From: a virus
Reading direction: 5' to 3' (one strand)
Length of the DNA: 64,000 nucleotides
UHGV virus genome: UHGV-0272730
The notes beneath the pieces were generated by a model that did no database searches, was not told the DNA's origin, and was given only the letters and a program-made list of their open reading frames with translations. How positions within the stretch are numbered: the first letter of the stretch is position 1; every line of letters starts with the position of its first letter. Below are positions 8,675-37,291 of this stretch, piece after piece. Made by a program: the position numbers and the translations under genes.

Positions 8675-8750
8675 TGGAGAATCCGAAGGGACTCGAACCC
8701 TTATAAACCTGTTTTGCAGACAGGCACATAGCCATTTCTGTCACGGATTC
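8675..8750 (-). tRNA. tRNA-Cys (anticodon GCA)
   Basis: Cloverleaf parsed on reverse complement: acceptor GAATCCG/CGGATTC, anticodon arm CCTGT-CTGCAAA-ACAGG, T arm AAGGG-TTCGAGT-CCCTT, CCA encoded. Confidence 0.75.
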
Positions 8751-8754
8751 AAAT

Positions 8755-8847
8755 TGGAGGAAGATACCAGACTTGAACTGGTACACCGATTTCTCAGCTA
8801 CTGGCAGTTTAGCAAACTGCTCCCTTACCTTTTAGGGTTAATCTTCC
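8755..8847 (-). tRNA. tRNA-Ser (anticodon GCT), class II with long variable arm
   Basis: Acceptor GGAAGAT/ATCTTCC, anticodon arm GCAGT-TTGCTAA-ACTGC, about 21 nt variable arm, T arm ACCAG-TTCAAGT-CTGGT. Confidence 0.65.
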
Positions 8848-8848
8848 A

Positions 8849-9646
8849 TTATTTCTGTAATGCGTTCTTCATTTCTGGTGTTGCAATAGTGTCAATCACA
8901 CCAGTTTTACAAGCATCATCAAACCAGTCTGGTAAGATACCTGCTAAGAACCCATTGATATTCGTTTTAAGGTACTCTGCAATAAGAGCAGCTTCTTCTT
9001 CAATCATCTGCACAACTTCATCTGCATAAGCTGTAATTTTTGAAATACCTTCATTAATCTTACTAACAGCTTGCTCAGCTAAATCAGAAATAGTATCAAG
9101 ACCTTTGTCAATAGCATCTTGTAAGTCACTTAACACACCATTAACACTATCTAGTGCACTGTTAATCGTATCAATAGCTTTTTGACCATACTCTGTAGCA
9201 ACACCCATAATACCACTAAATGGTGTACAGCCAACTTGTTCACCTACTGCACCCATAACATTAGAGTAACCTTTTGCTACCTGCATACGTGATGAAAACT
9301 CATCAATGGACTTTTGACCATAGTCTGTTAAGGTCTTAGTAGTCGCTGTAGTGCTTGTAAGGCTTGTTGTAAAGCTGTTTAGAAGGACTGTTGTAAGTCC
9401 AGCAGCAACAAGTTTCTCCTTCATTGTAGGGTCTGTTACAGAGCTAATAGAACTTACAAGTGATGTAGAGGCAGCTACGGTTCCACCGAGAACTGCTGCA
9501 CCAGTAATAAGGGGATTGGAAAACCCTCTACCGGTTTTTAAGAGATTAAAAATCTCCTTACCTTGTTCTGTCATCTCTTTCATTAAGCACCTTTGAAATT
9601 GGTAGTCCAGTGGGATTTGAACCCTCTTCTCATGTTTTTCAGACAC
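8849..9646 (-). CDS. hypothetical protein embedded in tRNA array
   Basis: 265 aa ORF exactly filling the gap between two tRNAs; Ser/Thr/Ala-rich N-terminus and helical C-terminus. Confidence 0.45.
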   Translation of the reverse strand: MSEKHEKRVQIPLDYQFQRCLMKEMTEQGKEIFNLLKTGRGFSNPLITGAAVLGGTVAASTSLVSSISSVTDPTMKEKLVAAGLTTVLLNSFTTSLTSTTATTKTLTDYGQKSIDEFSSRMQVAKGYSNVMGAVGEQVGCTPFSGIMGVATEYGQKAIDTINSALDSVNGVLSDLQDAIDKGLDTISDLAEQAVSKINEGISKITAYADEVVQMIEEEAALIAEYLKTNINGFLAGILPDWFDDACKTGVIDTIATPEMKNALQK

Positions 9647-9676
9647 GCGCTTTAACCATATAAGCTACTTGGACTA
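9600..9676 (-). tRNA. tRNA-Phe (anticodon GAA), tentative
   Basis: Acceptor TAGTCCA/TGGACTA, anticodon arm CGTGT-CTGAAAA-ACATG, T loop TTCAAAT. Confidence 0.6.
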
Positions 9677-9681
9677 TAAAT

Positions 9682-9757
9682 TGGGGTGACCTACGGGATT
9701 TGAACCCGTATAGACCATGTTCACAGCATGGGTCATTACCATTTATGATAAGGCCAC
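9682..9757 (-). tRNA. tRNA-His (anticodon GTG)
   Basis: Anticodon arm CCATG-CTGTGAA-CATGG, T arm ACGGG-TTCAAAT-CCCGT, CCA encoded. Confidence 0.65.
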
Positions 9758-9788
9758 ATTTAAGGACTCTCGTAAGAATCCTTAGAAG

Positions 9789-9864
9789 TGGCAGCGGCAT
9801 AAGGATTTGAACCTTAATAGGACAGCTTCAGAGACTGTTGCATTGCCAGTTATGCTATACCGCT
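9789..9864 (-). tRNA. tRNA with anticodon CTG (Gln-type), tentative
   Basis: Acceptor AGCGGTA/TGCCGCT, anticodon arm ACAGT-CTCTGAA-GCTGT, T arm TAAGG-TTCAAAT-CCTTA, CCA encoded. Confidence 0.55.
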
Positions 9865-9869
9865 AAATT

Positions 9870-9948
9870 TGGTACTCCATATCGGATTCGAACCGATACA
9901 TAACACAGATTTTAAGTCTGGCCTCTCTGCCAATTGGAGTAATGGAGC
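9870..9948 (-). tRNA. tRNA with anticodon loop CTTAAAA (anticodon TAA, Leu-type) but short variable arm
   Basis: Acceptor GCTCCAT/ATGGAGT, T arm ATCGG-TTCGAAT-CCGAT; 79 nt, unusual for tRNA-Leu. Confidence 0.5.
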
Positions 9949-9950
9949 AT

Positions 9951-10026
9951 TGGCGGGGGATGTTGGAATTGAACCAACTTCTTCGATTTCAAAGACCGAG
10001 GTTTTAACCTTGTAAACTAATCCCCT
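9951..10026 (-). tRNA. tRNA-Gln (anticodon TTG), tentative
   Basis: Anticodon arm TCGGT-CTTTGAA-ATCGA, T arm GTTGG-TTCAATT-CCAAC, CCA encoded. Confidence 0.55.
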
Positions 10027-10034
10027 TTAAATCT

Positions 10035-10592
10035 TTACTTTCTCAGTGGATGAATAAAGAATGCCAACATAACTCTTTCCCTTGAGAATGCTCTTTCTTC
10101 TGGGACAACACTTTTTAGTTTCCATCCAATATAAATTCTCCAGTAAAACTGTTTACCAAAGACTTTAATTGATGGGATAAAGGCGAATAATCCCCAAGCA
10201 TTACTGTTCCACATTAGGAGGTAACCAGTCTGATTATCTTCAGGGTCAGAACTTACGTTGATATTACCTTTCCACTTAGTAACATCTTTTACATCTCTTC
10301 CTAATACATGGTAAGAGAAGTTATAAGCTTTGTTTCTCCAGAGCCATCCGACTCTTTGCATGTAGACGCCTAGTTTACCAATCCATCTAATATTAGCCCA
10401 TCTTTTAACGTGACCTTCATCACCATCAATTGGGTTGTCATATGTCTCCATCCATCTGAACCCGAAAGGTAAGTGTCCTTTCTTCTCACTGTAGAATGGA
10501 ACTACAAAAGGTGCTAAGATAACTGCTAAGATTGCTGCAAATGGCTCTAACAAAGCTAAGAAAATCCATGAAGCATACTTTAAGTATCTCAT
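10035..10592 (-). CDS. hypothetical membrane protein inside tRNA array
   Basis: 185 aa ORF with strongly hydrophobic N-terminus (WIFLALLEPFAAILAVILAPFVVPF) and W/R-rich remainder. Confidence 0.4.
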   Translation of the reverse strand: MRYLKYASWIFLALLEPFAAILAVILAPFVVPFYSEKKGHLPFGFRWMETYDNPIDGDEGHVKRWANIRWIGKLGVYMQRVGWLWRNKAYNFSYHVLGRDVKDVTKWKGNINVSSDPEDNQTGYLLMWNSNAWGLFAFIPSIKVFGKQFYWRIYIGWKLKSVVPEERAFSRERVMLAFFIHPLRK

Positions 10593-10831
10593 TGTCTAAT
10601 CCTCGTAAGGAGGTAAATGTTATTATTCGTTTCTAAACCTTCTGGTAAAACTGTCTCAAAAATAACACTCTTCAGATGTCTACCACCAAAACAATCACGT
10701 ATAAATCTTTCTACTCTAGCGGGGTCACATAAGTATCCCACTTTTAAGAAAATGTGGTGTTCAACACCAATGACCCTGACAAACTCAATACTCTCACAGT
10801 TTTCATGTTCAACTACTGTTAATGTTTGCAT
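10589..10831 (-). CDS. hypothetical protein
   Basis: 80 aa ORF overlapping downstream gene start by 4 nt. Confidence 0.35.
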   Translation of the reverse strand: MQTLTVVEHENCESIEFVRVIGVEHHIFLKVGYLCDPARVERFIRDCFGGRHLKSVIFETVLPEGLETNNNIYLLTRIRQ

Positions 10832-10848
10832 AGTATCACCTTTTTATC

Positions 10849-10924
10849 TGGCGCAGGATAAGGGATTCGAACCCCTATTAACAGCTTCGTAGACTGTTGC
10901 TCTTTCCATTTGAACTAATCCTGC
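10849..10924 (-). tRNA. tRNA-Arg (anticodon ACG)
   Basis: Acceptor GCAGGAT/ATCCTGC, D arm GTTC/GAGC, anticodon arm ACAGT-CTACGAA-GCTGT, T arm AGGGG-TTCGAAT-CCCTT, CCA encoded. Confidence 0.65.
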
Positions 10925-10929
10925 AAAAT

Positions 10930-11007
10930 TGGTGTTCCAAGACGGATTCGAACCGTCACTAATACAAGGTTTGAGCTTGCATCCTCTGCCAATTGGGATA
11001 CTGGAAC
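10930..11007 (-). tRNA. tRNA with anticodon loop CTCAAAC (anticodon CAA, Leu-type) but short variable arm
   Basis: Acceptor GTTCCAG/TTGGAAC, T arm GACGG-TTCGAAT-CCGTC; 78 nt. Confidence 0.5.
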
Positions 11008-11011
11008 ATGA

Positions 11012-11083
11012 TACTCACTAAAGGACTTGAACCTTTTTCTTCATCTTGTAAGGGTGATGTTTTACCATATAAACTAAGCGAGT
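11012..11083 (-). tRNA. tRNA-Val (anticodon TAC), tentative; CCA not encoded
   Basis: Acceptor pairs 7/7 with one G-U, anticodon arm TCACC-CTTACAA-GATGA, T arm AAAGG-TTCAAGT-CCTTT. Confidence 0.55.
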
Positions 11084-11179
11084 ATGAAAGAGGTCTGGAG
11101 TTGTGCCGCTAACTCAACTCCGTGGAATTTGTTACGGTCTTCAGTTGACTCAAAGCGGTCTTTCACTTGACCTCTGAAT

Positions 11180-11257
11180 TGGTGCTCCCACAAGGACTCG
11201 AACCCGCATCTCCATCCTTACAAGGGATGTGTAATAGCCAATTATACGAAAGCAGCA
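11180..11257 (-). tRNA. tRNA-like element with perfect Thr-type anticodon arm (TGT) but degenerate T and acceptor stems
   Basis: Anticodon arm CATCC-CTTGTAA-GGATG perfect; T stem GCGGG/CCTTG pairs poorly; 5' acceptor strand not complementary; abuts HNH gene stop at 11258. Confidence 0.3.
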
Positions 11258-11671
11258 TTAAACTTTTATGATACCAGCATGTACTTTTCTGTGACAGTTA
11301 GCGCACAAGACAATGCACTTTCTGATTTCATCTTTTAATCTTTTTGTGGAGTATGAATAAAGTGATGCAGGATTCAAATCTTTCTGGGAAGGGTCTGTAT
11401 GGTGTAAATCCAATGCAACTGGTTCTTTCTCACCACATATATGACATTTGCATAAAGCTTTGTACCTTCTAGCTAGAGTCTTGTTATACTCTCTCTTGAA
11501 GTTACGAGTGCTTTTAATAGCCTCTTTCCTTTTATCATTTGCTTGATAACTCTTTGCATCACGAAGTCTTGCACAGTCTTTGCATTGACTTTGAAGACCA
11601 TCTTTCTTGTTCTTATTCTTATGGAATAAGCTTTCATCTTTTGGTATTCTGCAAGTACTGCATATTTTCAT
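11258..11671 (-). CDS. HNH homing endonuclease
   Basis: 137 aa with Cys clusters and HNH core CHICGE...LDLHH...CANCH. Confidence 0.75.
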   Translation of the reverse strand: MKICSTCRIPKDESLFHKNKNKKDGLQSQCKDCARLRDAKSYQANDKRKEAIKSTRNFKREYNKTLARRYKALCKCHICGEKEPVALDLHHTDPSQKDLNPASLYSYSTKRLKDEIRKCIVLCANCHRKVHAGIIKV

Positions 11672-11685
11672 ATCACACCTTAATT

Positions 11686-11760
11686 TGGAGCATCCAGAGG
11701 GAATCGAACCCTCAACCTCAGTTTGGAAGACTGTAATTTTCCCGTTTAAACTATGGATGC
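11686..11760 (-). tRNA. tRNA-Gly (anticodon TCC)
   Basis: Acceptor TGGATGC/GCATCCA perfect, anticodon loop CTTCCAA, T arm GAGGG-TTCGATT-CCCTC, CCA encoded. Confidence 0.65.
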
Positions 11761-11766
11761 ACTAAT

Positions 11767-11842
11767 TGGTGGAGAAGCAGGGAATTGAACCCTGTACTTA
11801 AGTTTGCAAAACTTATGTTTTAACCATGTAAACTACATCCCC
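11767..11842 (-). tRNA. tRNA-Ala (anticodon TGC)
   Basis: Anticodon arm TAAGT-TTTGCAA-ACTTA perfect; G3-U70 wobble in acceptor stem (Ala identity element); T arm CAGGG-TTCAATT-CCCTG. Confidence 0.65.
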
Positions 11843-11848
11843 AATGTC

Positions 11849-11924
11849 TGGTACAGGTGGAGGGAATTGAACCCATCGTCTTACTGATTAAGAGTCAGCC
11901 GCATAACCATTTTGCTACACCTGC
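11849..11924 (-). tRNA. tRNA-Lys (anticodon CTT), tentative
   Basis: Anticodon arm GCTGA-CTCTTAA-TCAGT; close paralogue of tRNA at 13264-13339. Confidence 0.55.
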
Positions 11925-11931
11925 ATTAATT

Positions 11932-12009
11932 TGGTAGGAGACAAGGGATTCGAACCCTCAAACATCTCGTTCTAAGCGAGATAGGTTTACCAATTACCGT
12001 CAATCTCCC
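11932..12009 (-). tRNA. tRNA with anticodon loop CTTAGAA (anticodon TAG, Leu-type) but short variable arm
   Basis: Anticodon stem TCTCG/CGAGA perfect, T arm GAGGG-TTCGAAT-CCCTT; 78 nt. Confidence 0.5.
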
Positions 12010-12264
12010 ATTAAATCTTTTTAGAGAACTTCTAAGAACCTAAGCAACAAGGCTCCACAACAAGCTGTAATAACCTTAGAAGCCCTCTAAAAAGACCTAA
12101 ATAGGTCTTTGCATAGTCTTGTTTAATCCGGTGACTAGAACCTTTGGAGAGCTTGATATTATCTCTTCTCCGTGACACCTACTAGGTGCTTTGACAGTGT
12201 ACGACAATACACGAGGGATAAACCGACAATGCGAACAAGCATGGACGGAGTAAATCTTATTAGG
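12010..12264 (-). ncRNA. structured non-coding spacer in tRNA array (candidate stable RNA)
   Basis: 255 nt without convincing ORF; about 19 bp imperfect inverted repeat (12017-12036 vs 12074-12093) plus small hairpin AGACCTAAATAGGTCT. Confidence 0.3.
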
Positions 12265-12354
12265 CGGTAAGTAAAGGAGTCGAACCCTCACCGTATCTCT
12301 ACAGTGGCAACTGTTTTCAAGACAGTTTGGCTACCATTAGCCGCTACCTACCCC
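12265..12354 (-). tRNA. tRNA-Ser (anticodon TGA), class II
   Basis: Acceptor GGTAGGT/ACTTACC, anticodon arm ACTGT-CTTGAAA-ACAGT perfect, long variable arm, T loop TTCGACT. Confidence 0.6.
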
Positions 12355-12365
12355 TAATAAGACTT

Positions 12366-12448
12366 TGGCATGGGACGGAGGAGTTGAACCCCTTTGAAAC
12401 GGTTTTGGAGGCCGTTGCTCATGCCTTAGAGTCTTAACATCGTCCCAT
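12366..12448 (-). tRNA. tRNA-Trp (anticodon CCA), tentative, with enlarged D region
   Basis: Acceptor ATGGGAC/GTCCCAT perfect, anticodon arm ACGGC-CTCCAAA-ACCGT; 83 nt. Confidence 0.5.
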
Positions 12449-12460
12449 ATTATAATTCGA

Positions 12461-12489
12461 AGCTTACCCTGTTATCTCAACACTGTCAA
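12461..12489 (-). promoter_or_regulatory. candidate sigma70-like promoter upstream of tRNA at 12366-12448
   Basis: Minus strand TTGACA (12484-12489), 17 bp spacer, TAAGCT (12461-12466). Confidence 0.3.
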
Positions 12490-12590
12490 GCTTCTTCTCA
12501 GATTATTTACATGTTCTGGAAAACATGAGATACAGACCACCTCCTTACACGGAGACCCGATAAGGTCGTCTAAGCAATCTGCTAACTATT

Positions 12591-12667
12591 TGGTACACCC
12601 TACAGGATTCGAACCTGTAACTAACGATTTAGAAGACCGTTGCTCTATCCAATTGAACTAAGGGTGC
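12591..12667 (-). tRNA. tRNA-Arg (anticodon TCT)
   Basis: Acceptor GCACCCT/AGGGTGT, D arm GTTC/GAGC, anticodon arm ACGGT-CTTCTAA-ATCGT, T arm ACAGG-TTCGAAT-CCTGT, CCA encoded. Confidence 0.65.
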
Positions 12668-12987
12668 ATTAACATTTTAAAGGGTACTTATTGCATTTAA
12701 GCCAAGCCCCATAAGGGATACCCTTTAGAATGTTGCCCACCTTATTAATCATACCGTGGGCGAGTACGCCAAATTCTTTGATGAGGGATTGGAAGACCTC
12801 ACTGGTGTTTAGCCTATCAAGCTACTGCCAGAAAAACATTGTCGTTTGCATTTATTTTAAATTTTCAAAATAGACGCTACGCAACGAAAACTATTCAGAA
12901 TATGTACAACAAATTTCCCCACATTGTGTTACGTCTAACGCTCATGTATTGGTGTTTGAATTATACATATTATGAAGTGTTTTAGTT

Positions 12988-13016
12988 ACTATAAAGTAGT
13001 CACATCTCAATGTCAA
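12988..13016 (-). promoter_or_regulatory. candidate sigma70-like promoter within 360 nt tRNA spacer
   Basis: Minus strand TTGACA (13011-13016), 17 bp spacer, TATAGT (12988-12993). Confidence 0.4.
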
Positions 13017-13031
13017 CAACTTTATTGAAAT

Positions 13032-13107
13032 TGGTGCTGGTAGGTGGAATCGAACCACCGATGTTCCCTTATCAGGGGAGTGTTATAACCTTCTTAACTA
13101 TACCAGC
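13032..13107 (-). tRNA. tRNA-Ile (anticodon GAT)
   Basis: Acceptor GCTGGTA/TACCAGC, D arm GTTA/TAAC, anticodon loop CTGATAA, T arm GGTGG-TTCGATT-CCACC, CCA encoded. Confidence 0.65.
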
Positions 13108-13108
13108 T

Positions 13109-13185
13109 TGGAGGTTCAGATGGGAATCGAACCCACATTCATAGGGCTTATGAAACCCCTGCATTACCTTATCTGCGACTGAACC
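13109..13185 (-). tRNA. tRNA with anticodon CAT (Met, fMet or Ile2)
   Basis: Acceptor GGTTCAG/CTGAACC, anticodon arm GGGGT-TTCATAA-GCCCT, T loop TTCGATT, CCA encoded. Confidence 0.55.
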
Positions 13186-13263
13186 AGAATAAGTACCCTA
13201 GTTAGAGAAACTGTTGAGTGGGTGTTTCCAGCCGCGCAGGTGTTTCTCAGTTAAGGGTGAATT

Positions 13264-13339
13264 TGGTAGAAGTGGAGGGATTCGAACCCATCGCCTGTCA
13301 GATTAAAAGTCTGCCGCATCACCATTCTGCTACACTTCC
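13264..13339 (-). tRNA. tRNA-Lys (anticodon TTT)
   Basis: Acceptor GGAAGTG/CACTTCT, anticodon loop CTTTTAA, T loop TTCGAAT, CCA encoded. Confidence 0.6.
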
Positions 13340-13539
13340 ATTAAATTATCTTTGTAGATAAGCTACCCAGACTTGCTTAAGGTCTGTAGCGATGTGCCTT
13401 TTTGGGTTTAAATCTAGAATTTACCCTTTCACCCTTTGTGGTCGCATACTCACAGGTAAGCTTAATAACTTATCTACAAAGATAATTACCAGACCGTTGT
13501 TTATCATCTTAAGTGCTACCATTACACCAACTCGACATC

Positions 13540-13566
13540 TGCCGAGTGAAGGAATCGAACCTTCGC
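13540..13566 (-). other. tRNA-like 3' fragment (T arm plus acceptor strand only)
   Basis: GAAGG-TTCGATT-CCTTC T arm followed by ACTCGGC on the minus strand, but no complementary 5' acceptor strand or anticodon arm within about 100 nt. Confidence 0.3.
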
Positions 13567-13795
13567 CTTTTCTTTACCGAGAAATAGATTGTTTAAGTTT
13601 TGCTGTAAACGGTCTTCTGTAAATTTGTTGAGCCAGACCAAGTTTTAAATTTTTCAAAATTAAATTGGCTTGAAATTTTCATACGTTCTTGCTGTATTTG
13701 GTCTTCTGCTCCTTTAAAGGATACTCGTAAGAACCCTTTAAGGGAGGGGCTAAAATAGCCCTCTCAAACATCATTTTGAAATACTTATTATAATT

Positions 13796-13873
13796 TGGCG
13801 GTTACGAAGGGATTTGAACCCTCATCATCTCCCGTGACAGGGGAGTATTTTAACCAGATTAAACTACATAACC
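13796..13873 (-). tRNA. tRNA-Asp (anticodon GTC)
   Basis: Anticodon arm CTCCC-CTGTCAC-GGGAG perfect, T arm GAGGG-TTCAAAT-CCCTT, CCA encoded. Confidence 0.65.
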
Positions 13874-13879
13874 TTTATT

Positions 13880-13967
13880 TGGTGTGCCGTGTAGGAGTCG
13901 AACCTACCGAGTCTCAATGACAAGGGATTTACAGTCCCCACCGCTACCATCTACGGGATAACGACAC
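13880..13967 (-). tRNA. tRNA-Tyr (anticodon GTA), class II
   Basis: Acceptor GTGTCGT/ACGGCAC (one G-U), 3 bp D stem CCG/CGG, anticodon arm GGGGA-CTGTAAA-TCCCT, about 15 nt variable arm, T arm GTAGG-TTCGACT-CCTAC. Confidence 0.6.
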
Positions 13968-13976
13968 ATTTAAATT

Positions 13977-14053
13977 TGGCGGTTAGTCAGGGATTCGAAC
14001 CCTGTGCCATTCGCTTAACAGGCGACCGCACATACCTTATGTGCTTCCTAACC
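13977..14053 (-). tRNA. tRNA-Asn (anticodon GTT)
   Basis: D arm GCAC/GTGC, anticodon loop CTGTTAA, T arm CAGGG-TTCGAAT-CCCTG, CCA encoded. Confidence 0.6.
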
Positions 14054-14130
14054 TTAATACATTGCCAGACCGTGTTTTTTCTTTTATCCGCAAAAAGTAT
14101 TTTGTTGCTGAATACGGTCTTCTGCAAAAT

Positions 14131-14207
14131 TGGAGGCGGGTGCAGGAGTCGAACCTGCCGATACCATGCTAATGAGACATGTGAGACGCCCTTTCTCTAT
14201 ACCCGCA
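14131..14207 (-). tRNA. tRNA with anticodon CAT (Met-type; 1-72 mismatch hints at initiator)
   Basis: Anticodon arm CATGT-CTCATTA-GCATG, T arm GCAGG-TTCGACT-CCTGC, CCA encoded; first acceptor pair appears unpaired. Confidence 0.5.
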
Positions 14208-14298
14208 ATTCTTAATGACCAGACCAAATCTCTTCTTTGTCCGATTTACCTTCAGATGAATAAGATTAAGTTTGCTGTAATTGGTCTTCTGTCAAAAC

Positions 14299-14376
14299 TG
14301 GCGTTCCAGAAGGGATTTGAACCCTCAGATATCCACTTTGAAAGAGTGGTGACTTTACCATTTTGTCTACTGGAAC
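14299..14376 (-). tRNA. tRNA-Glu (anticodon TTC)
   Basis: Acceptor GTTCCAG/CTGGAAC perfect, anticodon arm CCACT-CTTTCAA-AGTGG perfect, CCA encoded. Confidence 0.65.
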
Positions 14377-14383
14377 ATTAATT

Positions 14384-14460
14384 TGGTCTCTGTTGGAGGA
14401 CTTGAACCTCCGGCCTTACCGCCCCAAACGGAACGCTCTACCAAGCTGAGCTAAACAGAG
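14384..14460 (-). tRNA. tRNA-Pro (anticodon TGG)
   Basis: Acceptor CTCTGTT/AACAGAG perfect, D arm GCTC/GAGC, anticodon loop TTTGGGG, T arm GGAGG-TTCAAGT-CCTCC, CCA encoded. Confidence 0.65.
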
Positions 14461-24637: not shown

Positions 24638-24647
24638 AATATCTTAA

Positions 24648-24673
24648 GAGCCTCCTTAATCGGGGGCTTTTTA
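24648..24673 (+). terminator. rho-independent terminator ending plus-strand block
   Basis: GAGCCTCCTTAATCGGGGGCT hairpin followed by TTTTT. Confidence 0.55.
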
Positions 24674-26262
24674 TTGAGTAAAATTTACGAAATTTATATT
24701 TTTTATAAAATTTTATCGGTTGTCCCAACCTCTGGGTCACCATCATATGTGAATAAAATATCTACCCTTCTTAACAACCTTCTTAATCTTACTCTCTATA
24801 TAGTTATATAGTACTATATAGTATCTTAGTAACTATCTAGTGGTCTTAATAGCCCTCTGTATAGCCCTTCTAAATAGCCCTCTAAACACTCTTCTAACAA
24901 GCCTTCTTAACAACCTATACAATCACCTTAACCATCTCTCTACACTCTCTTAGAAGCTCCTATACACCTCTTAATCTCTATGTCAGCTATGATACTCTCT
25001 ATAGGTGTTCACTAGGTGCTACTAAGCCTCTATATAGACTGTTTTAACAAACTTAACAGGAATATCTTTACAGACCTTATCTCACAAGGTCTAACACGGT
25101 ACTAACAAGGTATCTTATAAGCCTGTTATTACCTGTATTTTAGAAAGACTGTATAGGTAATTATTCAGATTTTTAAAATTTTTATAAAATAGGACTATCA
25201 AGTCATTTTTTAGGGTCTTTGAAGGAACTGAAAAATATCTGTAGAAGATGTATATCTGCTTGGTAGCCCTTAACAGCTCCCTTACAAGTACTTTGCAAAA
25301 TTTTAAAATATCCTTAACAATCTCTTAACAGCTCTAACACCTTCTTAACAACTCTTCAAAGGTCTTAACAGATTCTTAACAGAACTAACAAGAGCGTAAC
25401 AGTTTCTTAACAGTTGATACATAGGCTTTACAGAATCTTAACAGATGACTAACAAGAGCTAACAAGTTAATTTTTAAGAGTTATTTTGTTAAGATAATTA
25501 ACAAGTCTCTAACAAGTGTTTAATCTTTTTAACAAGCTATTAACATGGTCACTACTCTTTCTTATCGTTCCCTTTCCCTTCTTAGTGATTCTTTAAACAT
25601 ACCTCTTAAAAGCTCTCTATAGCTCTTTATAGCCTCTTTTAAGCCTCTTCCTAGTAGTTACACCCCAACTGTACAGATACCTCTTTATAGAGCTTTACAG
25701 GAGCTTTTAAGGCTATGTCAAAGACTCTTACAAGGCTTTTACGTGGCCTTAACAGAGATTTAACAAGGGGCTAACAAGTCTCTAACAAGTGCCTTAAAAG
25801 CATAACTATGTAGGGATTGTTAAGAAATTGTTAAGAGAATGTTAAGGGGGCTAGCATTTACGTAACTTTATAGCCCCTTTTACGTAACTTTTAAGCTACT
25901 TCAAAGTAACTTTATAGCCCCTATAACATACTTTTAAGACACTAACAAGCCCTTTTTAGATATTCACAAGAATACTAATGAGATGATAAAGCTTACACCC
26001 TTATAAGATTCTTTTAAGTCTCTGGGAAGCTTTATAAAGGGCTTTTAAGGGTGAGGTAATGCAATCCCTTAAGTTAGGTTGATAAGGCTGTTATAGAGCT
26101 TTATAGAGCGTTTAAATGGGCCATCCCCTTTCTGGGGTTATTGGCTTTTATTTAAGTTGATTTGATAAGAGGTTATAGAGTAGACTATAGAGTTATTGCT
26201 TTTAAGGTCTGATAAGATTCTGGAAAGGTGAGGGAAAGGGATTGTATAAGGATTCGATAGAC
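24674..26262. repeat. ORF-free repeat-rich region with iterated TTAACA(A/G) motifs
   Basis: No ORF of 60 aa or more on either strand; more than 20 copies of CTTAACAG/CTAACAAG, densest 25260-25800 at roughly 10-11 bp spacing; CTATATAG-type palindromes at 24800-25030. Confidence 0.6.
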
Positions 26263-26327: not shown

Positions 26328-26576
26328 TTAGTTATAATCTTGCTTGTTGTAGTACAGGGAGACAATTTTTTCTCCCCAGTAGTGGTAGTGATATTCCTCG
26401 TTTATGGCTTCTTTTACAGCGTCCTTCCAAAAGTCATCGGTAGGGTTATAATCTGGTAGCACCTGCTGAATCAGCATTTTGATAAGGTCAAAGGTGTTAT
26501 TTGTTCCACCGATATCGAATTTTGCATCAAGTTCGTGGCAGCCATAAGCATTAACAGTTACGCGGATAGTTGACAT
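26328..26576 (-). CDS. hypothetical early protein
   Basis: 82 aa ORF preceded by conserved intergenic cassette with GGAG SD. Confidence 0.45.
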   Translation of the reverse strand: MSTIRVTVNAYGCHELDAKFDIGGTNNTFDLIKMLIQQVLPDYNPTDDFWKDAVKEAINEEYHYHYWGEKIVSLYYNKQDYN

Positions 26577-28459: not shown

Positions 28460-29002
28460 TTAGAAAAAGCTCTTTAAATCCTCTTCTGCAATGTTTCCTG
28501 TCAGTGTATCCATGATGTCACAAAAAACCTGAATACTGTCCGACTGTTGAACACTTTTAGCAAGAAGCTCCAGAGACTCATCAAGATAGTTTAAATTTGG
28601 GTTATCCAATGAAGGAAGACAAAAAGGTGAATACATAGCGTTAAACTCTGTTGTATAGACCTTTTTAATCCAATTTACATCAAAGTACTCTGTAAAACTT
28701 GCTACACTCGACATATTATCACAAGAATAATCATCGTTTAGCTCATCCTCTGGAATATCGAGTTCTAAGATAACAATATTTTGAGTCTTCATCTGAAAAG
28801 CTGCGGTGATAGTGGCATTGCCTAGAGCTTGCTGAATACCTTCCGATGTTATCTCTTCATCATCGTCGCCATAGATTTTATTTTCTGGATACACGTAAAA
28901 ATTGCCGTCCATATCCGAACAATTCCATGCGCCTGATGGTTTATCACCGTTATTAATCAGGTTGAGGAAATTTTCTTGAGTAGTTCCGTGATAGCATTTC
29001 AT
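28460..29002 (-). CDS. hypothetical early protein (acidic)
   Basis: 180 aa ORF preceded by cassette. Confidence 0.45.
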   Translation of the reverse strand: MKCYHGTTQENFLNLINNGDKPSGAWNCSDMDGNFYVYPENKIYGDDDEEITSEGIQQALGNATITAAFQMKTQNIVILELDIPEDELNDDYSCDNMSSVASFTEYFDVNWIKKVYTTEFNAMYSPFCLPSLDNPNLNYLDESLELLAKSVQQSDSIQVFCDIMDTLTGNIAEEDLKSFF

Positions 29003-32278: not shown

Positions 32279-32662
32279 TTATTTGTTAATTTTGAAGATA
32301 GTTACATAACCATCACTACCGATTATTTGAGACACTCCAGCTTTTTCTACTTTATAGCCCATATTTTCAAGATGATAAACAGCATCATCATAACCATATG
32401 CGCCACCCTGATAACGTCTCTTATCACATTTTATCAGGTTTTTACCACGTCCAGCAAGTGCATGTAAAATGGCTTTTTCACTTGAAAGAGTACCATCTAA
32501 CATGGTTGCCGTGTAATGGTTGATTCTATTCCCGTTTACATCATACTTAAAATTGAATGCGTGAACAATGATAATGTTACCTTTAAAATTTTCATCAAGT
32601 GACTTCTCCAGTGCGTTGCGAAAGTTGTCCTTGTTGATGAATTTAGGTGCACGATAAGCCAT
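32279..32662 (-). CDS. hypothetical early protein (first gene of early block)
   Basis: 127 aa ORF; preceded by cassette and candidate promoter. Confidence 0.45.
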   Translation of the reverse strand: MAYRAPKFINKDNFRNALEKSLDENFKGNIIIVHAFNFKYDVNGNRINHYTATMLDGTLSSEKAILHALAGRGKNLIKCDKRRYQGGAYGYDDAVYHLENMGYKVEKAGVSQIIGSDGYVTIFKINK

Positions 32663-32725
32663 TTTTGAATCTCCAGTTTAGGACTTTATTTAGTGGGGAA
32701 GGTCATTCCCTCCCCGTTGATGCAA

Positions 32726-32754
32726 ATATTAGATAACCACACTCAAAGAGTCAA
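32726..32754 (-). promoter_or_regulatory. candidate strong sigma70-type promoter for early gene block
   Basis: Minus strand TTGACT (32749-32754), 17 bp spacer, TAATAT (32726-32731). Confidence 0.45.
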
Positions 32755-32920
32755 GAAAAATTTTAAAAATATTTTTGGCAAAACTGTAATGAAACGGGCG
32801 CACACGACTACCACAAAACAGAACACAAATCAAGAATTATTTTTCAATCCGCTACAAATTTTTCTCTTGACTTTTAGGGAGAGGGGGAGAGGGGTTGGTC
32901 TGGCTCTCTATAAAAACCTA

Positions 32921-33065
32921 CCTGCACAATTCTAAAATGATTTTTCTTGCCCGACCTGAGCGGGGTCTGCACGTTTTGAAAATGATTTTTCTATCCGGCT
33001 ATGAGATTTTTTGGGATATCTGTACAGACCCCTACAGATACCTGCACAAATTGAAAATGAAAAAG
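32921..33065. repeat. three direct repeats of a roughly 27 bp element
   Basis: CCTGCACAATTCTAAAATGATTTTTCT (32921-32947), TCTGCACGTTTTGAAAATGATTTTTCT (32967-32993), CCTGCACAAATTGAAAATGAAAAAG (33041-33065). Confidence 0.55.
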
Positions 33066-33138
33066 GCCGCCTTACCTTAAATTTTTCAATGGGTTAGGCA
33101 GCCTTCTTAGATGATTTGTAGATACTATGAAGTGCTAA

Positions 33139-33918
33139 TCAGCTTATGAATTTGAACTTTTTAGAATACAGCAAGTAGTGAACTTCATCCTGATTTGTTG
33201 TGTAGATGTATGCTGCTGGGTAGTTATCAAAGAACACCCCTTCATATCTTCCAAACGGGTCAACTGGGAACATTTCACTGTTACACATACCCATCTCACT
33301 AACCAGAGGGTAACTAACCTCAACCTTGCCATCAACAAGCTGATAGAGGGTAACTTGATTAGTCTTCCCGTCACTTAGCACGACACCATCATAGAATTGT
33401 GGTGCTGAGGTAGCATACTTAGGGGTAACTACACTTGCCATTGCTTCATCATAGACGTAGAGGTACACATCAACGTTATACATAACACTATTAATGAGGC
33501 TTTTCACAGCTTGTGCATCTAAACCGCCTATACCTGCCCCAATCATGGGTAAACCAATCTTACGAATGTTGTGCAGCCAGCAAAATTTACGGAGTTTTTC
33601 TAGTGACTCCACTAAGTATCGGTATGATGCACACTTCCCAACATCCAACTGTGTATATAGGTTAAAAATGTAACCATACTCCGTTCGAGCATGTGACACC
33701 TCACCAACCATCTGGTATCCGATATCATGAGCACTGTAGCCAAACTTTTTATGGAATTTCCGGTCAGCTTCTTCAGCTTTTGGGAAAATCTTAGCAATTT
33801 TTTGAGCGATTCCAGCACCCATGAGGTTACGACAGTTGCAACCATGAGCAATTAACTCAATATCTGTGTTTTTGAAGGCAGCCAGTAAGTTACCTTTTAC
33901 AACTTTTACAATACCCAT
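33139..33918 (-). CDS. macrodomain protein (TARG1/DarG-like ADP-ribosyl hydrolase fold) with C-terminal domain of unknown function
   Basis: 259 aa; N-terminal 150 aa carries IAHGCNCRNLMGAGIAQKIAKIFP and GLPMIGAGIGGLD, matching TARG1/OARD1-type macrodomain signatures as I recall them; C-terminal 110 aa unassigned. Confidence 0.55.
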   Translation of the reverse strand: MGIVKVVKGNLLAAFKNTDIELIAHGCNCRNLMGAGIAQKIAKIFPKAEEADRKFHKKFGYSAHDIGYQMVGEVSHARTEYGYIFNLYTQLDVGKCASYRYLVESLEKLRKFCWLHNIRKIGLPMIGAGIGGLDAQAVKSLINSVMYNVDVYLYVYDEAMASVVTPKYATSAPQFYDGVVLSDGKTNQVTLYQLVDGKVEVSYPLVSEMGMCNSEMFPVDPFGRYEGVFFDNYPAAYIYTTNQDEVHYLLYSKKFKFIS

Positions 33919-37191: not shown

Positions 37192-37250
37192 TGGTTCTCC
37201 TGTTTAGTTTATCGTGACAACAATTATACAGCACTCTGCACAAAATACAA

Positions 37251-37276
37251 ATAAAAAAGGCCGCCGGAGCAGCCTT
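37251..37276 (-). terminator. rho-independent terminator (flanking tracts on both strands)
   Basis: GGCCGCCGGAGCAGCC hairpin with AAAAAA before and TTTT after on plus. Confidence 0.5.
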
Positions 37277-37291
37277 TTAAGGAATTACTTA

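What the first reader, a model, noticed from the sequence alone, without database searches (positions are those of the whole stretch)
32726..33138. Leader region of the early block: strong sigma70-like promoter plus three 27 bp direct repeats
A TTGACT-N17-TAATAT promoter (minus strand) sits upstream of the first early gene. Further upstream are three direct repeats CTGCAC-N-TTGAAAATGA-TTTTTCT (32921-33065) and a G-rich run GGGAGAGGGGGAGAGGGG (32877-32894). Their regular spacing suggests a binding array for a host or phage regulator, or tandem promoters.
Basis: seen in the sequence. Interest (0 to 1): 0.45.

Follow-up and report, generated by a model that had tools for sequence, protein, structure and literature searches.

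The report
Conserved repeat array before early promoter
This is the non-coding control region at the head of the small early genes of a Felix O1-type phage: a terminator, three copies of a 19-base motif that related phage genera keep in the same place and that probably binds an unidentified protein, and a host-type promoter that is one of seven near-identical promoter-hairpin cassettes.

Summary
The window is a Felixounavirus (Felix O1-like) genome. The finding is the 476-bp gap between a macro-domain "phosphatase" gene and a 127-aa gene, both on the minus strand.

**Promoter:** the TTGACT-N17-TAATAT promoter is real in sequence. It is one of seven dispersed cassettes, each with an A/T-rich upstream tract, -35/-10 hexamers, a GGGG..CCCC 5' hairpin and a Shine-Dalgarno site. 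They resemble the PeSL cassettes of T4-type phages.

**Repeats:** these are better described as a bipartite 19-nt core, TCATTT-N7-GTGCAG on the gene strand.
- The core occurs exactly three times in 64 kb, all in this gap and on one strand.
- Copy 3 overlaps the U-tract of a strong intrinsic terminator.
- Most relatives carry four copies. Erwinia phages of another genus and an unclassified contig carry four or five at the same syntenic spot.
- Core columns are 43/48 invariant against 54/146 for flanks.
- The repeats are not sigma-70 promoters, show no coding signal, form no conserved RNA fold, are not at the genome terminus, and in this phage are not DnaA boxes.

**Best reading:** a DNA-level binding array for an unidentified protein at the boundary of the early block. 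A replication origin is the main rival.

**G-run:** variable. Its long form is a G-quadruplex motif at which assemblies break.

The parts
33053..33108 (-). Intrinsic (rho-independent) terminator of the upstream macro-domain/phosphatase gene. The GC-rich stem is 33103..33065 and the U-tract TTTTTCATTTTC is 33064..33053.
   Evidence: The RNA fold gives -23.3 kcal/mol, z = -4.4, with 0 of 200 shuffles as stable. The only Rfam signal in the region is a sub-threshold ctRNA hit on this hairpin. The hairpin plus T-tail is retained in both divergent alleles and in the Erwinia phage. The consensus scan missed it because its loop exceeds 8 nt.
33042..33060 (-). Gene-strand core is TCATTTTCAATTTGTGCAG, and its left half is part of the terminator U-tract.
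   Evidence: An orthologous copy A follows the terminator in all 23 aligned loci.
32967..32985 (-). Core is TCATTTTCAAAACGTGCAG. Homology to the common four-copy allele resumes here.
   Evidence: Many relatives' BLAST matches end at window ~32985.
32922..32940 (-). Core is TCATTTTAGAATTGTGCAG, preceded by GGTCGGGCAAGAAAAA.
   Evidence: The 40-nt unit is 34/40 identical to unit E3 of Erwinia phage vEam_PM_6.
32877..32894 (+). Homopurine G-run, C-rich on the gene strand. This is a variable tract. This phage has a short form with three G3+ runs.
   Evidence: Relatives have a form 12 nt longer, GGGGAGAGGGGGAGTAAGAGGGGGAGAGGGG, with four G-runs, or an unrelated ~55-nt allele. A C-rich tract follows the repeats in the Erwinia phage too. 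Five IMG/VR contigs begin or end inside this tract, three of them fused to Nextera adapter sequence.
32830..32875 (-). Most conserved non-coding block: AAAAGTCAAGAGAAAAATTTGTAGCGGATTGAAAAATAATTCTTGA. It is A-tract rich and its function is unknown. It carries an inverted copy of the promoter's -35 region.
   Evidence: It is nearly invariant in 23 loci. An exact degenerate pattern finds one copy per Felixounavirus contig. It forms inverted repeat I1 with the promoter region.
32755..32778 (-). A/T-rich tract directly upstream of the -35: CCAAAAATATTTTTAAAATTTTTC. It looks like an UP element.
   Evidence: The sequence is. It is conserved in relatives, and an A-rich tract is present in the consensus of 64 cassette copies. 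The match to the UP-element consensus rests on my knowledge of Estrem et al. 1998 and was not tested.
32726..32754 (-). Sigma-70-type early promoter: TTGACT - 17 nt - TAATAT. The start site is predicted at about 32718-32721.
   Evidence: One search found the site. The same architecture occurs at a fixed distance from the leader hairpin in 7 window copies and 64 distinct copies overall, with consensus cTTGAc-N17-TAAATT-N7-ATCAACGGGG. Felix O1 ORFs 16, 20, 21 and 22, downstream of the homologous promoter, peak at 5 min.
32663..32722 (-). Conserved 5' leader: an 8-bp hairpin GGGGAGGG-AATGA-CCTTCCCC (32715..32695), a spacer, the Shine-Dalgarno GGAG (32674..32671), then the ATG at 32662.
   Evidence: This is a dispersed repeat with copies upstream of the gene starts at 26576, 26904, 27501, 28069, 29628 and 30496. 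The fold gives -17.9 kcal/mol. Forty-one distinct hairpin sequences sit at the same place; nearly all are predicted to fold into a stem of 4 to 8 bp, a few only weakly.
32279..32662 (-). First gene served by the promoter in this phage: 127 aa, PHROG 4495, unknown function.
   Evidence: In relatives, one or two extra small ORFs are inserted between the promoter and this gene.

Best explanation
The finding is the conserved non-coding control region that separates the rIIA/rIIB-to-phosphatase operon from the block of small early genes of a Felix O1-type phage. Read 5' to 3' on the gene (minus) strand, it has five parts.

1. **Terminator.** A strong intrinsic terminator ends the upstream operon.
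2. **Repeat array.** Three direct copies of a bipartite 19-bp site, TCATTTY-N5-YGTGCAG, follow. Most relatives have four copies. The array occurs only at this locus and is under purifying selection as DNA. I take it to be the binding platform of a sequence-specific DNA-binding protein, more likely phage-encoded than host-encoded. I infer that several protomers form a boundary or regulatory complex about 170-225 bp upstream of the early promoter. That complex would insulate the early block from read-through, or modulate the promoter after the early phase.
3. **Variable tract.** A pyrimidine/purine tract of unclear role follows. On the gene strand it is C-rich and G-poor, so it could serve as a Rho loading site for transcripts that escape the terminator.
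4. **Conserved block.** An almost invariant A-tract-rich block comes next.
5. **Promoter cassette.** An UP-like tract and a sigma-70 promoter produce a transcript that begins with a stable 5' hairpin followed by a strong ribosome-binding site. This cassette is one of seven near-identical copies and works like the PeSL cassettes of T4-type phages.

**Shown:** the sequence features, their copy numbers, their conservation and their synteny.

**Inferred:** protein binding, the identity of the binder, and the effect on transcription.
For: **Uniqueness of the array**
- The exact 12-nt core occurs 3 times in 64 kb, all here and on the same strand. Shuffles give 0.2 matches even when one mismatch is allowed.
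- There is one array per related contig in IMG/VR.
- No comparable array was found in 185,579 bacterial species genomes.

**Selection on the DNA sequence**
- In 21 four-copy loci the core columns are 43/48 invariant, with 98.7% mean pairwise identity.
- The internal N7 is 8/28 invariant (83.8%) and the spacers are 46/118 invariant (85.5%). Fisher p = 1e-10.
- Information content peaks at TCATTT and YGTGCAG, with a trough between them.

**Deep synteny**
- Erwinia phages (Kolesnikvirus) share only 36% identity in the upstream protein.
- They still show macro-domain gene, terminator, four repeats (TCATTTY-N5-YGTGCATAG, spacing 37/37/39), C-rich tract, and A/T tract with TTGACT-N17-TATATT.
- One 40-nt unit is 34/40 identical between the two genera.
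- A third lineage (L078) has five copies after its macro-domain gene.

**Alternatives tested and not supported**
- Not promoters.
- Not coding: variable columns number 11/40, 11/39 and 12/39 by codon position.
- No conserved RNA fold: z = -2.3 on the gene strand and -0.8 on the plus strand, and the helices use allele-specific sequence.

**Other parts**
- Terminator.
- Promoter cassette family.
- Early expression of the downstream homologues in Felix O1.
- PeSL definition for comparison.
Against: - No binder is identified. None of the 19 neighbouring and early-block proteins scanned has a recognisable DNA-binding domain.
- Spacing differs between lineages and is not helically phased: 45/75, 73/39/45 and 37/37/39 bp.
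- The array lies far from the -35 (about 170-225 bp) for a classical operator.
- Copy A's left half doubles as the terminator U-tract. An orphan copy at 37236 also abuts a terminator. Part of the similarity could therefore come from a shared terminator module.
- Concerted evolution by recombination between copies could inflate the apparent conservation.
- The right half-site differs between genera (GTGCAGGTA against GTGCATAG). This fits a co-evolving phage protein but is not proof.
- There are no experimental data on transcription starts, protein binding or phenotype for this region in any Felix O1-like phage in the searchable literature.
Confidence: 0.55

Rival explanations
1. The array is the iteron part of the phage's origin of replication. 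An initiator protein binds the direct repeats. The adjacent A/T-rich block or purine/pyrimidine tract melts or forms an R-loop. Transcription from the neighbouring strong promoter helps activation.
For: - The array has three to five same-orientation repeats of about 19 bp. It is unique in the genome, lies in a roughly 0.5-kb non-coding region and is conserved across genera.
- A/T-rich conserved blocks and a strong promoter lie nearby.
- No origin has been described for Felix O1-like phages in the papers read.
- The Erwinia-phage version carries six same-strand one-mismatch DnaA boxes in about 260 bp.
Against: - No initiator-like or DNA-binding gene is adjacent.
- The replication genes are elsewhere in the genome.
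- There are no DnaA boxes in this phage's region.
- Cumulative GC skew shows no inflection here.
- The G-rich strand of the variable tract flips between alleles, so a fixed R-loop polarity is not conserved.
- Spacing between repeats is irregular.
Confidence: 0.15
2. The repeats have no function of their own. They are tandem duplicates of the terminator tail and its downstream sequence. They persist as linker or microhomology sequences where modules are exchanged, as proposed for PeSLs and lambdoid boundary sequences.
For: - Copy A overlaps the terminator U-tract. B- and C-type copies are preceded by GAGCTTTTT, which resembles the terminator's 3' arm plus tail.
- An orphan copy at 37236 also follows a similar terminator.
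- Mosaic junctions fall at the repeats. The two ~41%-identical phosphatase alleles rejoin at copy C, and the two alleles of the variable tract diverge right after copy D.
Against: - Neutral duplicates should decay evenly. Instead the 12 core positions are 43/48 invariant while the N7 between them and the flanks vary.
- Copy number and order are kept across genera whose flanking proteins are only 36-42% identical.
- One unit is 34/40 identical between genera.
Confidence: 0.1
3. The repeats act in RNA. They would be transcribed by read-through of the terminator or from the opposite strand, and would serve as repeated binding sites for an RNA-binding protein or as part of a small RNA.
For: - The gene-strand fold of the array is slightly more stable than shuffles (z = -2.3).
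- An inverted copy of the -35 region (TTGACT, 32868-32873) faces the array on the plus strand. In one allele it has TAGCCT 17 nt downstream.
Against: - The array lies downstream of a strong terminator.
- The plus-strand -10 is absent in this phage and not conserved between alleles.
- The predicted helices use sequence present only in this allele.
- The plus-strand fold is not better than shuffles (z = -0.8).
- There is no Rfam match.
Confidence: 0.05
4. The repeats are the coding sequence of a small plus-strand protein with a repeated YLHxxKM motif. Several GenBank records annotate such a gene.
For: - An open frame crosses copies D, C and (where present) B in most loci examined. It is 61 aa here (32895-33080, TTG start).
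- It is annotated as Phi87_49/50 in UAB_Phi87. BPS17L1 gp012 is a different, overlapping plus-strand ORF.
- The D-C and C-B spacings (45 and 39 bp) are multiples of three in most loci.
Against: - Variable columns are spread evenly over codon positions: 11/40, 11/39 and 12/39.
- Synonymous positions of CTG, CAC and AAA are invariant, while the residues between them change freely.
- Start codon, N-terminus and C-terminus differ between alleles, and there is no Shine-Dalgarno site.
- Spacing is 41 bp, or the frame changes, in distant relatives.
- The Erwinia-phage spacing of 37/37/39 bp is not in frame.
Confidence: 0.04
5. The array is a cluster of DnaA-type boxes that works like the injection stop signal proposed for phage T5. 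It would hold the first-entering ~8-9% of the genome, which carries the early genes.
For: - In T5-like phages the stop signal at 7.9% of the genome holds eight DnaA or DnaA-like boxes.
- Here the array lies about 7.1 kb from the inner edge of the terminal repeat as mapped from Pr103Blw. That is about 7.7 kb from the physical end, roughly 8-9% of an ~88-kb genome.
- The genes between the array and the end are small ORFans behind strong sigma-70 promoters.
- The Erwinia-phage copies read CTATGCACA or TTATGCACG, one mismatch from TTWTNCACA.
Against: - This phage's region has no TTWTNCACA site at one mismatch or fewer, against a background of 2.95 per kb. The common Felixounavirus allele has one, and it lies outside the repeats.
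- The conserved left half, TCATTTY, is not explained by DnaA.
- The terminal repeat is only ~0.6 kb, not ~10 kb as in T5.
- Upstream genes are also expressed early.
- Two-step transfer has never been reported for Felix O1-like phages in the papers found.
Confidence: 0.04
6. The repeats are tandem promoters.
For: - Each plus-strand copy contains TTGAAA or CTAAAA, which resembles a -35 hexamer.
- Copy D is followed by TATAGA at an 18-nt spacing from TTTAGA (read from the sequence).
Against: - No site in 32880-33138 passes even a lenient sigma-70 scan on either strand.
- The candidate -10 sequences are not shared between copies or alleles.
- The motif is not found upstream of any other gene in 64 kb, so it is not a phage-specific promoter class.
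Confidence: 0.03

Closest known systems
PeSL (promoter-early stem-loop) cassettes of T4-type phages (Arbiol et al. 2010, PMC2839356; Comeau et al. 2014, PMC4122927)
   Same: - Both have a strong sigma-70-like promoter with an A/T-rich tract upstream.
- Both have a stem-loop built from a G-run and a C-run. One PeSL subclass places it downstream of the -10, as here.
- Both end in a Shine-Dalgarno site and an ATG.
- Both have many near-identical copies dispersed among small ORFans.
- In both, indels between close relatives are bounded by the cassettes.
   Different: - The phage subfamily is different (Ounavirinae, not T4-like).
- The hairpin here is not followed by a U-tract. It sits 3-6 nt from the predicted 5' end, so it looks more like a 5' mRNA stabiliser than a terminator.
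- Neither promoter strength nor mini-circle formation has been tested.
- The PeSL concept covers the promoter cassette only, not the upstream TCATTT-N7-GTGCAG array.
Iteron arrays of plasmid and phage replication origins, such as lambda ori/O protein and P1 or F Rep iterons (from my knowledge of these systems)
   Same: Both have three to five direct repeats of about 19 bp in one orientation. Both lie at a single locus in a non-coding region with A/T-rich sequence nearby. In both, core positions are conserved and spacers are variable.
   Different: There is no adjacent initiator gene and no DnaA boxes in this phage. Spacing is irregular (37-75 bp) rather than about 22-bp phased. No replication data exist.
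DnaA-box cluster of the T5 injection stop signal (Davison 2020, bioRxiv 10.1101/866236)
   Same: Both are conserved repeat-rich non-coding regions about 8-9% from a genome end, bounding a block of small early genes with strong host-type promoters. The Erwinia-phage copies are one mismatch from a DnaA box.
   Different: The window's copies are three mismatches from the DnaA consensus, and the region has no site at one mismatch or fewer. T5 boxes are arranged in pairs within inverted repeats, not as direct repeats. The terminal repeat is short here.
UP-element-assisted strong sigma-70 promoters, such as rrnB P1 and T5 early promoters (from my knowledge)
   Same: The -35 matches 5/6, the spacer is 17 bp, and an A/T-rich tract (AAAAATATTTTTAAAATTTTT) abuts the -35.
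   Different: The -10 matches only 4/6 (TAATAT here, TAAATT in most sister cassettes). Strength has not been measured.
5'-terminal stem-loop mRNA stabilisers, such as the ompA leader (from my knowledge of Emory, Bouvet and Belasco 1992)
   Same: A stable 8-bp hairpin lies within a few nucleotides of the predicted 5' end and is followed by an unstructured ribosome-binding region.
   Different: The transcript start is not mapped and no half-life data exist. PeSL authors read similar hairpins as attenuators.

Membership tests
Sigma-70 promoter | A -35 and a -10 hexamer close to TTGACA and TATAAT, separated by 16-18 bp | tested here: met
   TTGACT-17-TAATAT matches 9/12. Hexamer matches at this level are frequent in this A/T-rich DNA (12 found against 5.5 expected).
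Sigma-70 promoter | Conservation of the hexamers and their position relative to the transcribed region | tested here: met
   Sixty-four distinct cassette copies aligned on the hairpin give cTTGAc-N17-TAAATT-N7-ATCAACGGGG. The promoter is conserved in 23 orthologous loci.
Sigma-70 promoter | Transcription starts 5-9 nt downstream of the -10 in vivo or in vitro | not testable with these tools
   No 5'-end data for Felix O1-like phages were found. RT-PCR timing of downstream homologues is early.
PeSL-type regulatory cassette | Composite of a sigma-70 promoter with an A/T-rich upstream tract, a G-run/C-run stem-loop, a Shine-Dalgarno site and a start codon in one ~100-bp unit | tested here: met
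.
PeSL-type regulatory cassette | Multiple dispersed copies among small ORFans in a plastic region | tested here: met
   There are seven promoter-type and four promoterless leader copies between 26576 and 32662. Sixteen of the proteins encoded there have no Pfam match.
PeSL-type regulatory cassette | Indels between close relatives bounded by the cassettes | tested here: met
   One or two extra ORFs lie between the promoter and the 127-aa gene in finno, phiWec172 and several IMG/VR loci. Each has its own leader variant.
PeSL-type regulatory cassette | Measured promoter and terminator activity, and mini-circle formation | not testable with these tools
   This requires reporter fusions and inverse PCR.
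Intrinsic terminator | GC-rich hairpin immediately followed by a U-tract, downstream of a stop codon | tested here: met
   The fold gives -23.3 kcal/mol with z = -4.4, and the U-tract is TTTTTCATTTTC. The hairpin core starts 36 nt after the stop codon.
Iteron-type replication origin | Three or more direct repeats of about 17-22 bp in one orientation at a single locus | tested here: met
Iteron-type replication origin | Adjacent A/T-rich unwinding element | tested here: inconclusive
   A/T-rich blocks at 32755-32778 and 32830-32875 exist, but they are short and also serve as promoter-upstream sequence.
Iteron-type replication origin | Cognate initiator (DNA-binding protein) encoded next to or around the iterons | tested here: not met
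   Only a Macro domain was found in the upstream gene. The other 18 neighbouring and early-block proteins scanned had no Pfam hit, and the ten also run against PHROGs were assigned no DNA-binding function. Remote homology was not explored.
Iteron-type replication origin | Replication initiates there | not testable with these tools
   GC skew shows no inflection, but skew follows transcription direction in this genome.
DnaA-box cluster (oriC-like or T5 iss-like) | Several TTWTNCACA boxes with at most one mismatch | tested here: not met
   There are 0 sites in the window's 476-bp region, against a background of 2.95 per kb. The common allele has 1 and the Erwinia-phage region has 6.
Genome terminus or packaging site | Coincides with the physical end or terminal repeat | tested here: not met
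   The PhageTerm-defined 581-bp terminal repeat of Pr103Blw maps to window ~25271-25851, 7 kb away. Contigs that break in the G-run carry no second copy of the flanking block.
Known RNA families (Rfam 15) | Match at or above the gathering score | tested here: not met
   The only match is ctRNA_p42d at 21 bits against a gathering score of 50 (E = 0.32), on the terminator hairpin.

The most novel reading that the evidence does not exclude
The TCATTTY-N5-YGTGCA array, with the adjacent invariant A-tract block and purine/pyrimidine tract, is the so far unmapped replication origin of Felix O1-like phages (Ounavirinae). An unrecognised phage initiator protein would bind the iteron-like repeats next to a strong early promoter. 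A still more remote reading is a T5-like DNA-entry pause site, because the array lies about 8-9% from the genome end.
Probability: 0.15. Interest if true: 0.6.

Novelty: new member of a known kind. Interest (0 to 1): 0.45.

Why it matters
**Gap in knowledge.** Felix O1 is a classical Salmonella typing phage, and its relatives are widely used in biocontrol and therapy. The genome paper states that the temporal regulation of its transcription is not known. No origin of replication was described in any of the papers found.

**What this work adds.**
- The direct repeats that the genome paper listed without comment form a PeSL-like family of early promoter-hairpin cassettes. That explains both early expression and the gene-content plasticity of this region.
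- A second, undescribed cis element was found: a 19-bp bipartite site repeated three to five times, conserved in place across at least two genera.

**Why it is useful.** The array is a precise, testable handle for finding an unknown DNA-binding protein. It can also be used to test whether the locus is a regulatory boundary or the replication origin.

**Practical points.**
- The plus-strand ORFs annotated over the array in several GenBank records are probably spurious.
- The G-quadruplex-type tract is a recurrent assembly break point.

Tried and rejected
- **Genome terminus or packaging site.** Three IMG/VR contigs start in the G-run and two end in it; three of the five are fused to Nextera adapter sequence. 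However, the mapped terminal repeat lies 7 kb away, and those contigs carry no duplicated flank. I read the breaks as coverage loss at a G-quadruplex/homopurine tract.
- **Plus-strand protein gene over the repeats.** There is no codon periodicity in the variation, and the starts are inconsistent.
- **DnaA boxes.** The resemblance is good in Erwinia phages but absent in this phage.
- **Tandem sigma-70 promoters or a phage-specific promoter class.** No hexamer pairs are found, and the motif is absent elsewhere.
- **Conserved RNA structure or a known RNA family.**
- **Host chromosomal counterpart of the array.** A two-copy pattern scan of 185,579 species genomes returned only unrelated tandem repeats and nothing from Enterobacterales. 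Extra IMG/VR hits were coding repeats, and L062 was a chance duplication.
- **Candidate binder among neighbours.** Pfam and PHROGs gave nothing.
- **Replication signal in base composition.** There is no skew inflection.
- **Experimental data for the region.** The Bas63 PhageMaP supplement holds gene-level data only. The UAB_Phi87 record is not opened at its physical end, so it could not be used to place the terminus.
- **Hand comparison with other motifs.** I compared the repeats from memory with CRP, Fur, OmpR, IHF, sigma-54, sigma-32 and sigma-28 motifs, and with lambda O, P1 RepA and F RepE iterons. Only partial matches appeared, in the variable N7 or in a few positions. None is claimed.
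Full report
**Context**

The window carries 26 tRNA genes. The region around the finding is 98.6% identical to Salmonella phage BPS17L1 and matches 227 phage records, nearly all from the Felix O1-like genus Felixounavirus. Genes here run on the minus strand. The finding is the 476-bp intergenic region 32663-33138. It lies between a 259-aa macro-domain "phosphatase" gene (33139-33918) and a 127-aa gene of unknown function (32279-32662).

**The observation**

The hexamers TTGACT-17-TAATAT are at 32754-32726 on the minus strand. The G-run is at 32877-32894. The direct repeats exist, but they are two good ~27-nt copies plus a partial third.

What all three share is a bipartite core. On the plus strand it reads CTGCAC-N7-AAATGA, and on the gene strand TCATTT-N7-GTGCAG. 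That exact core occurs three times in the 64-kb window, all here and on one strand. Allowing one mismatch adds only 37236, whereas shuffles give 0.2. Spacing is 45 and 75 bp, so it is not regular.

**The promoter is one of a family**

An internal BLAST showed that the 60 nt between the promoter and the ATG are a dispersed repeat. Eleven gene starts between 26576 and 32662 share the ribosome-binding leader.

- Seven of the eleven also have a -35/N17/-10 pair. Exactly 7 nt further on comes ATCAAC and a GGGGAGGG..CCTTCCCC hairpin.
- Across the window and related loci there are 64 distinct copies. Their consensus is an A-rich tract, then cTTGAc-N17-TAAATT-N7-ATCAACGGGG.
- There are 41 distinct hairpin sequences at this position, and nearly all are predicted to fold into a stem of 4 to 8 bp, a few only weakly. 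The copy in the finding folds at -17.9 kcal/mol.
- The tract directly upstream of the -35 (CCAAAAATATTTTTAAAATTTTTC) resembles the UP-element consensus. That comparison rests on my own knowledge.

The Felix O1 genome paper listed parts of these cassettes as 39-bp and 57-bp direct repeats without interpretation. It did not include them among its predicted promoters, and it stated that temporal regulation is unknown. Its RT-PCR table puts ORFs 13, 16, 20, 21 and 22 in the 5-min class. ORF13 is the phosphatase, and ORF16 onward lie downstream of the homologous promoter.

The cassettes fit the published definition of PeSLs in T4-type phages. That definition is a strong sigma-70 promoter, an A/T-rich upstream tract and a G-run/C-run stem-loop (in one subclass downstream of the -10). 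A Shine-Dalgarno site and an ATG complete the unit, which is dispersed among ORFans and bounds indels. In line with this, relatives have one or two extra small ORFs inserted between this promoter and the 127-aa gene. None of the early-block proteins has a Pfam match.

**The third repeat sits on a terminator**

On the gene strand, 33108-33053 folds into a long GC-rich hairpin followed by TTTTTCATTTTC (-23.3 kcal/mol, z = -4.4). The left half of repeat copy A is that U-tract. The only Rfam signal in the region is a sub-threshold match on this hairpin.

**The repeats are conserved, and as DNA**

- In 23 aligned loci, comprising 22 IMG/VR Felixounavirus loci and the window, the usual state is four copies. 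They lie 74, 147, 186 and 231 nt after the upstream stop codon.
- This window belongs to a minority with a very different phosphatase allele (about 41% identity; only 13 records carry it). This minority has three copies.
- Within the four-copy loci the 12 core positions are 43/48 invariant. The N7 inside the repeats is 8/28 invariant and the spacers 46/118 (Fisher p = 1e-10).
- The information profile is bipartite.
- In Erwinia phage vEam_PM_6 (genus Kolesnikvirus) the phosphatase is only 36% identical. The same order is still found: macro-domain gene, terminator, four repeats (TTTTTCATTTYNNAWWYGTGCATAG, spacing 37/37/39), a C-rich tract, then an A/T tract with TTGACT-N17-TATATT and small genes.
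- One 40-nt unit is 34/40 identical between the two genera.
- Two more Erwinia-phage contigs and an unclassified 88-kb contig (L078, five copies) show the same arrangement.
- A two-copy pattern finds no other viral group, apart from coding repeats and one chance hit. It finds no Enterobacterales genome.

**What the repeats are not**

- *Promoters.* No hexamer pair passes the scan in 32880-33138 on either strand, and the motif does not precede other genes.
- *A protein-coding sequence.* A plus-strand ORF reads the repeats as YLHxxKM, and some records annotate it. However, variation is flat across codon positions (11/40, 11/39, 12/39). Synonymous sites in the core never vary. Starts and ends differ between alleles.
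- *A conserved RNA structure.*
- *The genome end.* Felix O1-like phages have ~0.6-kb direct terminal repeats. The repeat annotated for Pr103Blw maps to window ~25271-25851.
- *DnaA boxes in this phage.* The Erwinia-phage copies are one mismatch from TTWTNCACA, and six such sites share a strand within ~260 bp. This window's region has none at one mismatch or fewer, and the common Felixounavirus allele has one, outside the repeats. That weakens the analogy with the DnaA-box cluster of the T5 injection stop signal. The array does, however, lie about 8-9% from the genome end.

**The G-run**

The G-run is the short form of a variable tract.

- Many relatives have GGGGAGAGGGGGAGTAAGAGGGGGAGAGGGG, four G-runs that make a canonical G-quadruplex motif.
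- About half have an unrelated ~55-nt allele that is G-rich on the other strand.
- The Erwinia phage also has a C-rich tract at this place.
- Five IMG/VR contigs start or stop inside the tract, three of them fused to Nextera adapter. I attribute this to coverage failure.
- On the gene strand the tract is C-rich and G-poor, so a role as a Rho loading site for read-through transcripts is possible. This is inference only.

Next to the tract lies the best-conserved block of the whole region (32830-32875). Its function is unknown.

**Mechanism proposed**

*Shown:* a terminator, a unique conserved direct-repeat array, a variable tract, an invariant block and a promoter cassette, in that order.

*Inferred:* the array is bound by several copies of a sequence-specific DNA-binding protein. 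The binder is probably phage-encoded, because the right half-site differs between genera (GTGCAGGTA against GTGCATAG) while being fixed within each. The complex would form a boundary or regulatory element about 170-225 bp upstream of the first early promoter.

The main rival is an iteron-type origin of replication. The repeat architecture fits it. Against it are the absence of an adjacent initiator gene, of DnaA boxes and of any skew signal. A neutral-scar origin for the repeats explains their resemblance to the terminator tail and their position at mosaic junctions. It does not explain the bipartite conservation or the cross-genus retention.

**Novelty and score**

- The promoter cassette is a new member of the PeSL kind, in a phage group where it has not been described.
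- The repeat array is an undescribed cis element of a familiar general kind.
- No paper in the searchable library mentions the array.
- Interest is moderate. The element is clearly real and conserved and gives direct experiments, but its function remains inferred.

Noticed in passing
window 24640-25851: A ~1.2-kb non-coding region is packed with short CTTGTTAAGA / CTGTTAAGA / TATAGAGAG-type motifs. The 581-bp direct terminal repeat annotated for phage Pr103Blw maps to its right part (window ~25271-25851). The physical genome end therefore lies here, between the plus-strand and minus-strand gene blocks.
   Followed up: partly
window, upstream of the gene starts at 29002, 29338, 31208 and 31813 (minus strand): A second, promoterless leader type follows the stop codon directly. 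It reads ..AAATAAAGTACTTTACA-GGGGCTTAA..TTAAGCCCC-AGATAAAGAGCTTTACCACT.. and is then followed by the shared Shine-Dalgarno region. It has no U-tract, so it could be an intercistronic processing or stabilising hairpin. It corresponds to the 57-bp direct repeat listed in the Felix O1 paper.
   Followed up: no
L037, L040 and L046 starts; L058 and L059 ends (homologous to window 32877-32894): Independent IMG/VR assemblies from one sample break inside the G-run. Two contig starts (L037, L040) and one contig end (L059) are fused to untrimmed Nextera adapter sequence. This is probably a sequencing drop-out at a G-quadruplex/homopurine tract and a contamination issue in those public contigs.
   Followed up: partly
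window 33139-33918: The macro-domain 'phosphatase' gene exists in two alleles only ~41% identical at the protein level. The window's allele is found in only 13 of over 250 full-length phage matches. The exchange junction lies in the repeat array.
   Followed up: partly
window 37236-37290 (minus strand): An orphan near-copy of the repeat (TTATTTGTATTTTGTGCAG) abuts the U-tract of a second, similar terminator (GGCTGCTCCGGCGGCCTTTTTT). It overlaps a possible promoter, TTTGTA-N17-TATAAT.
   Followed up: no
window 32693-32935 and 32895-33080 (plus strand); L005 2891-3206; L001 4321-4548: Plus-strand ORFs across the promoter and repeat region are annotated as hypothetical proteins in UAB_Phi87 and BPS17L1. 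The ORF that reads through the repeats shows no coding signature and is probably spurious. The overlapping BPS17L1 gp012-type ORF was judged only from single-base indels in the alignment.
   Followed up: yes
L078 460-1170 (reverse strand): In an unclassified 88-kb IMG/VR contig the five-copy array is followed by a tract rich in TTAACA / TTAACAA motifs. These resemble the motifs of the Felixounavirus terminal-repeat region, which hints at a link between the two repeat systems.
   Followed up: no
window 8675-14460: Twenty-six tRNA genes lie in clusters on the minus strand, including two tRNA-Met.
   Followed up: no
window 33006-33051: An imperfect palindrome (GGTATCTGTA..TACAGATATCC), and an 11-nt arm pairing GGGGTCTGTAC with GTGCAGACCCC, are present only in this minority allele between copies A and C.
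   Followed up: partly
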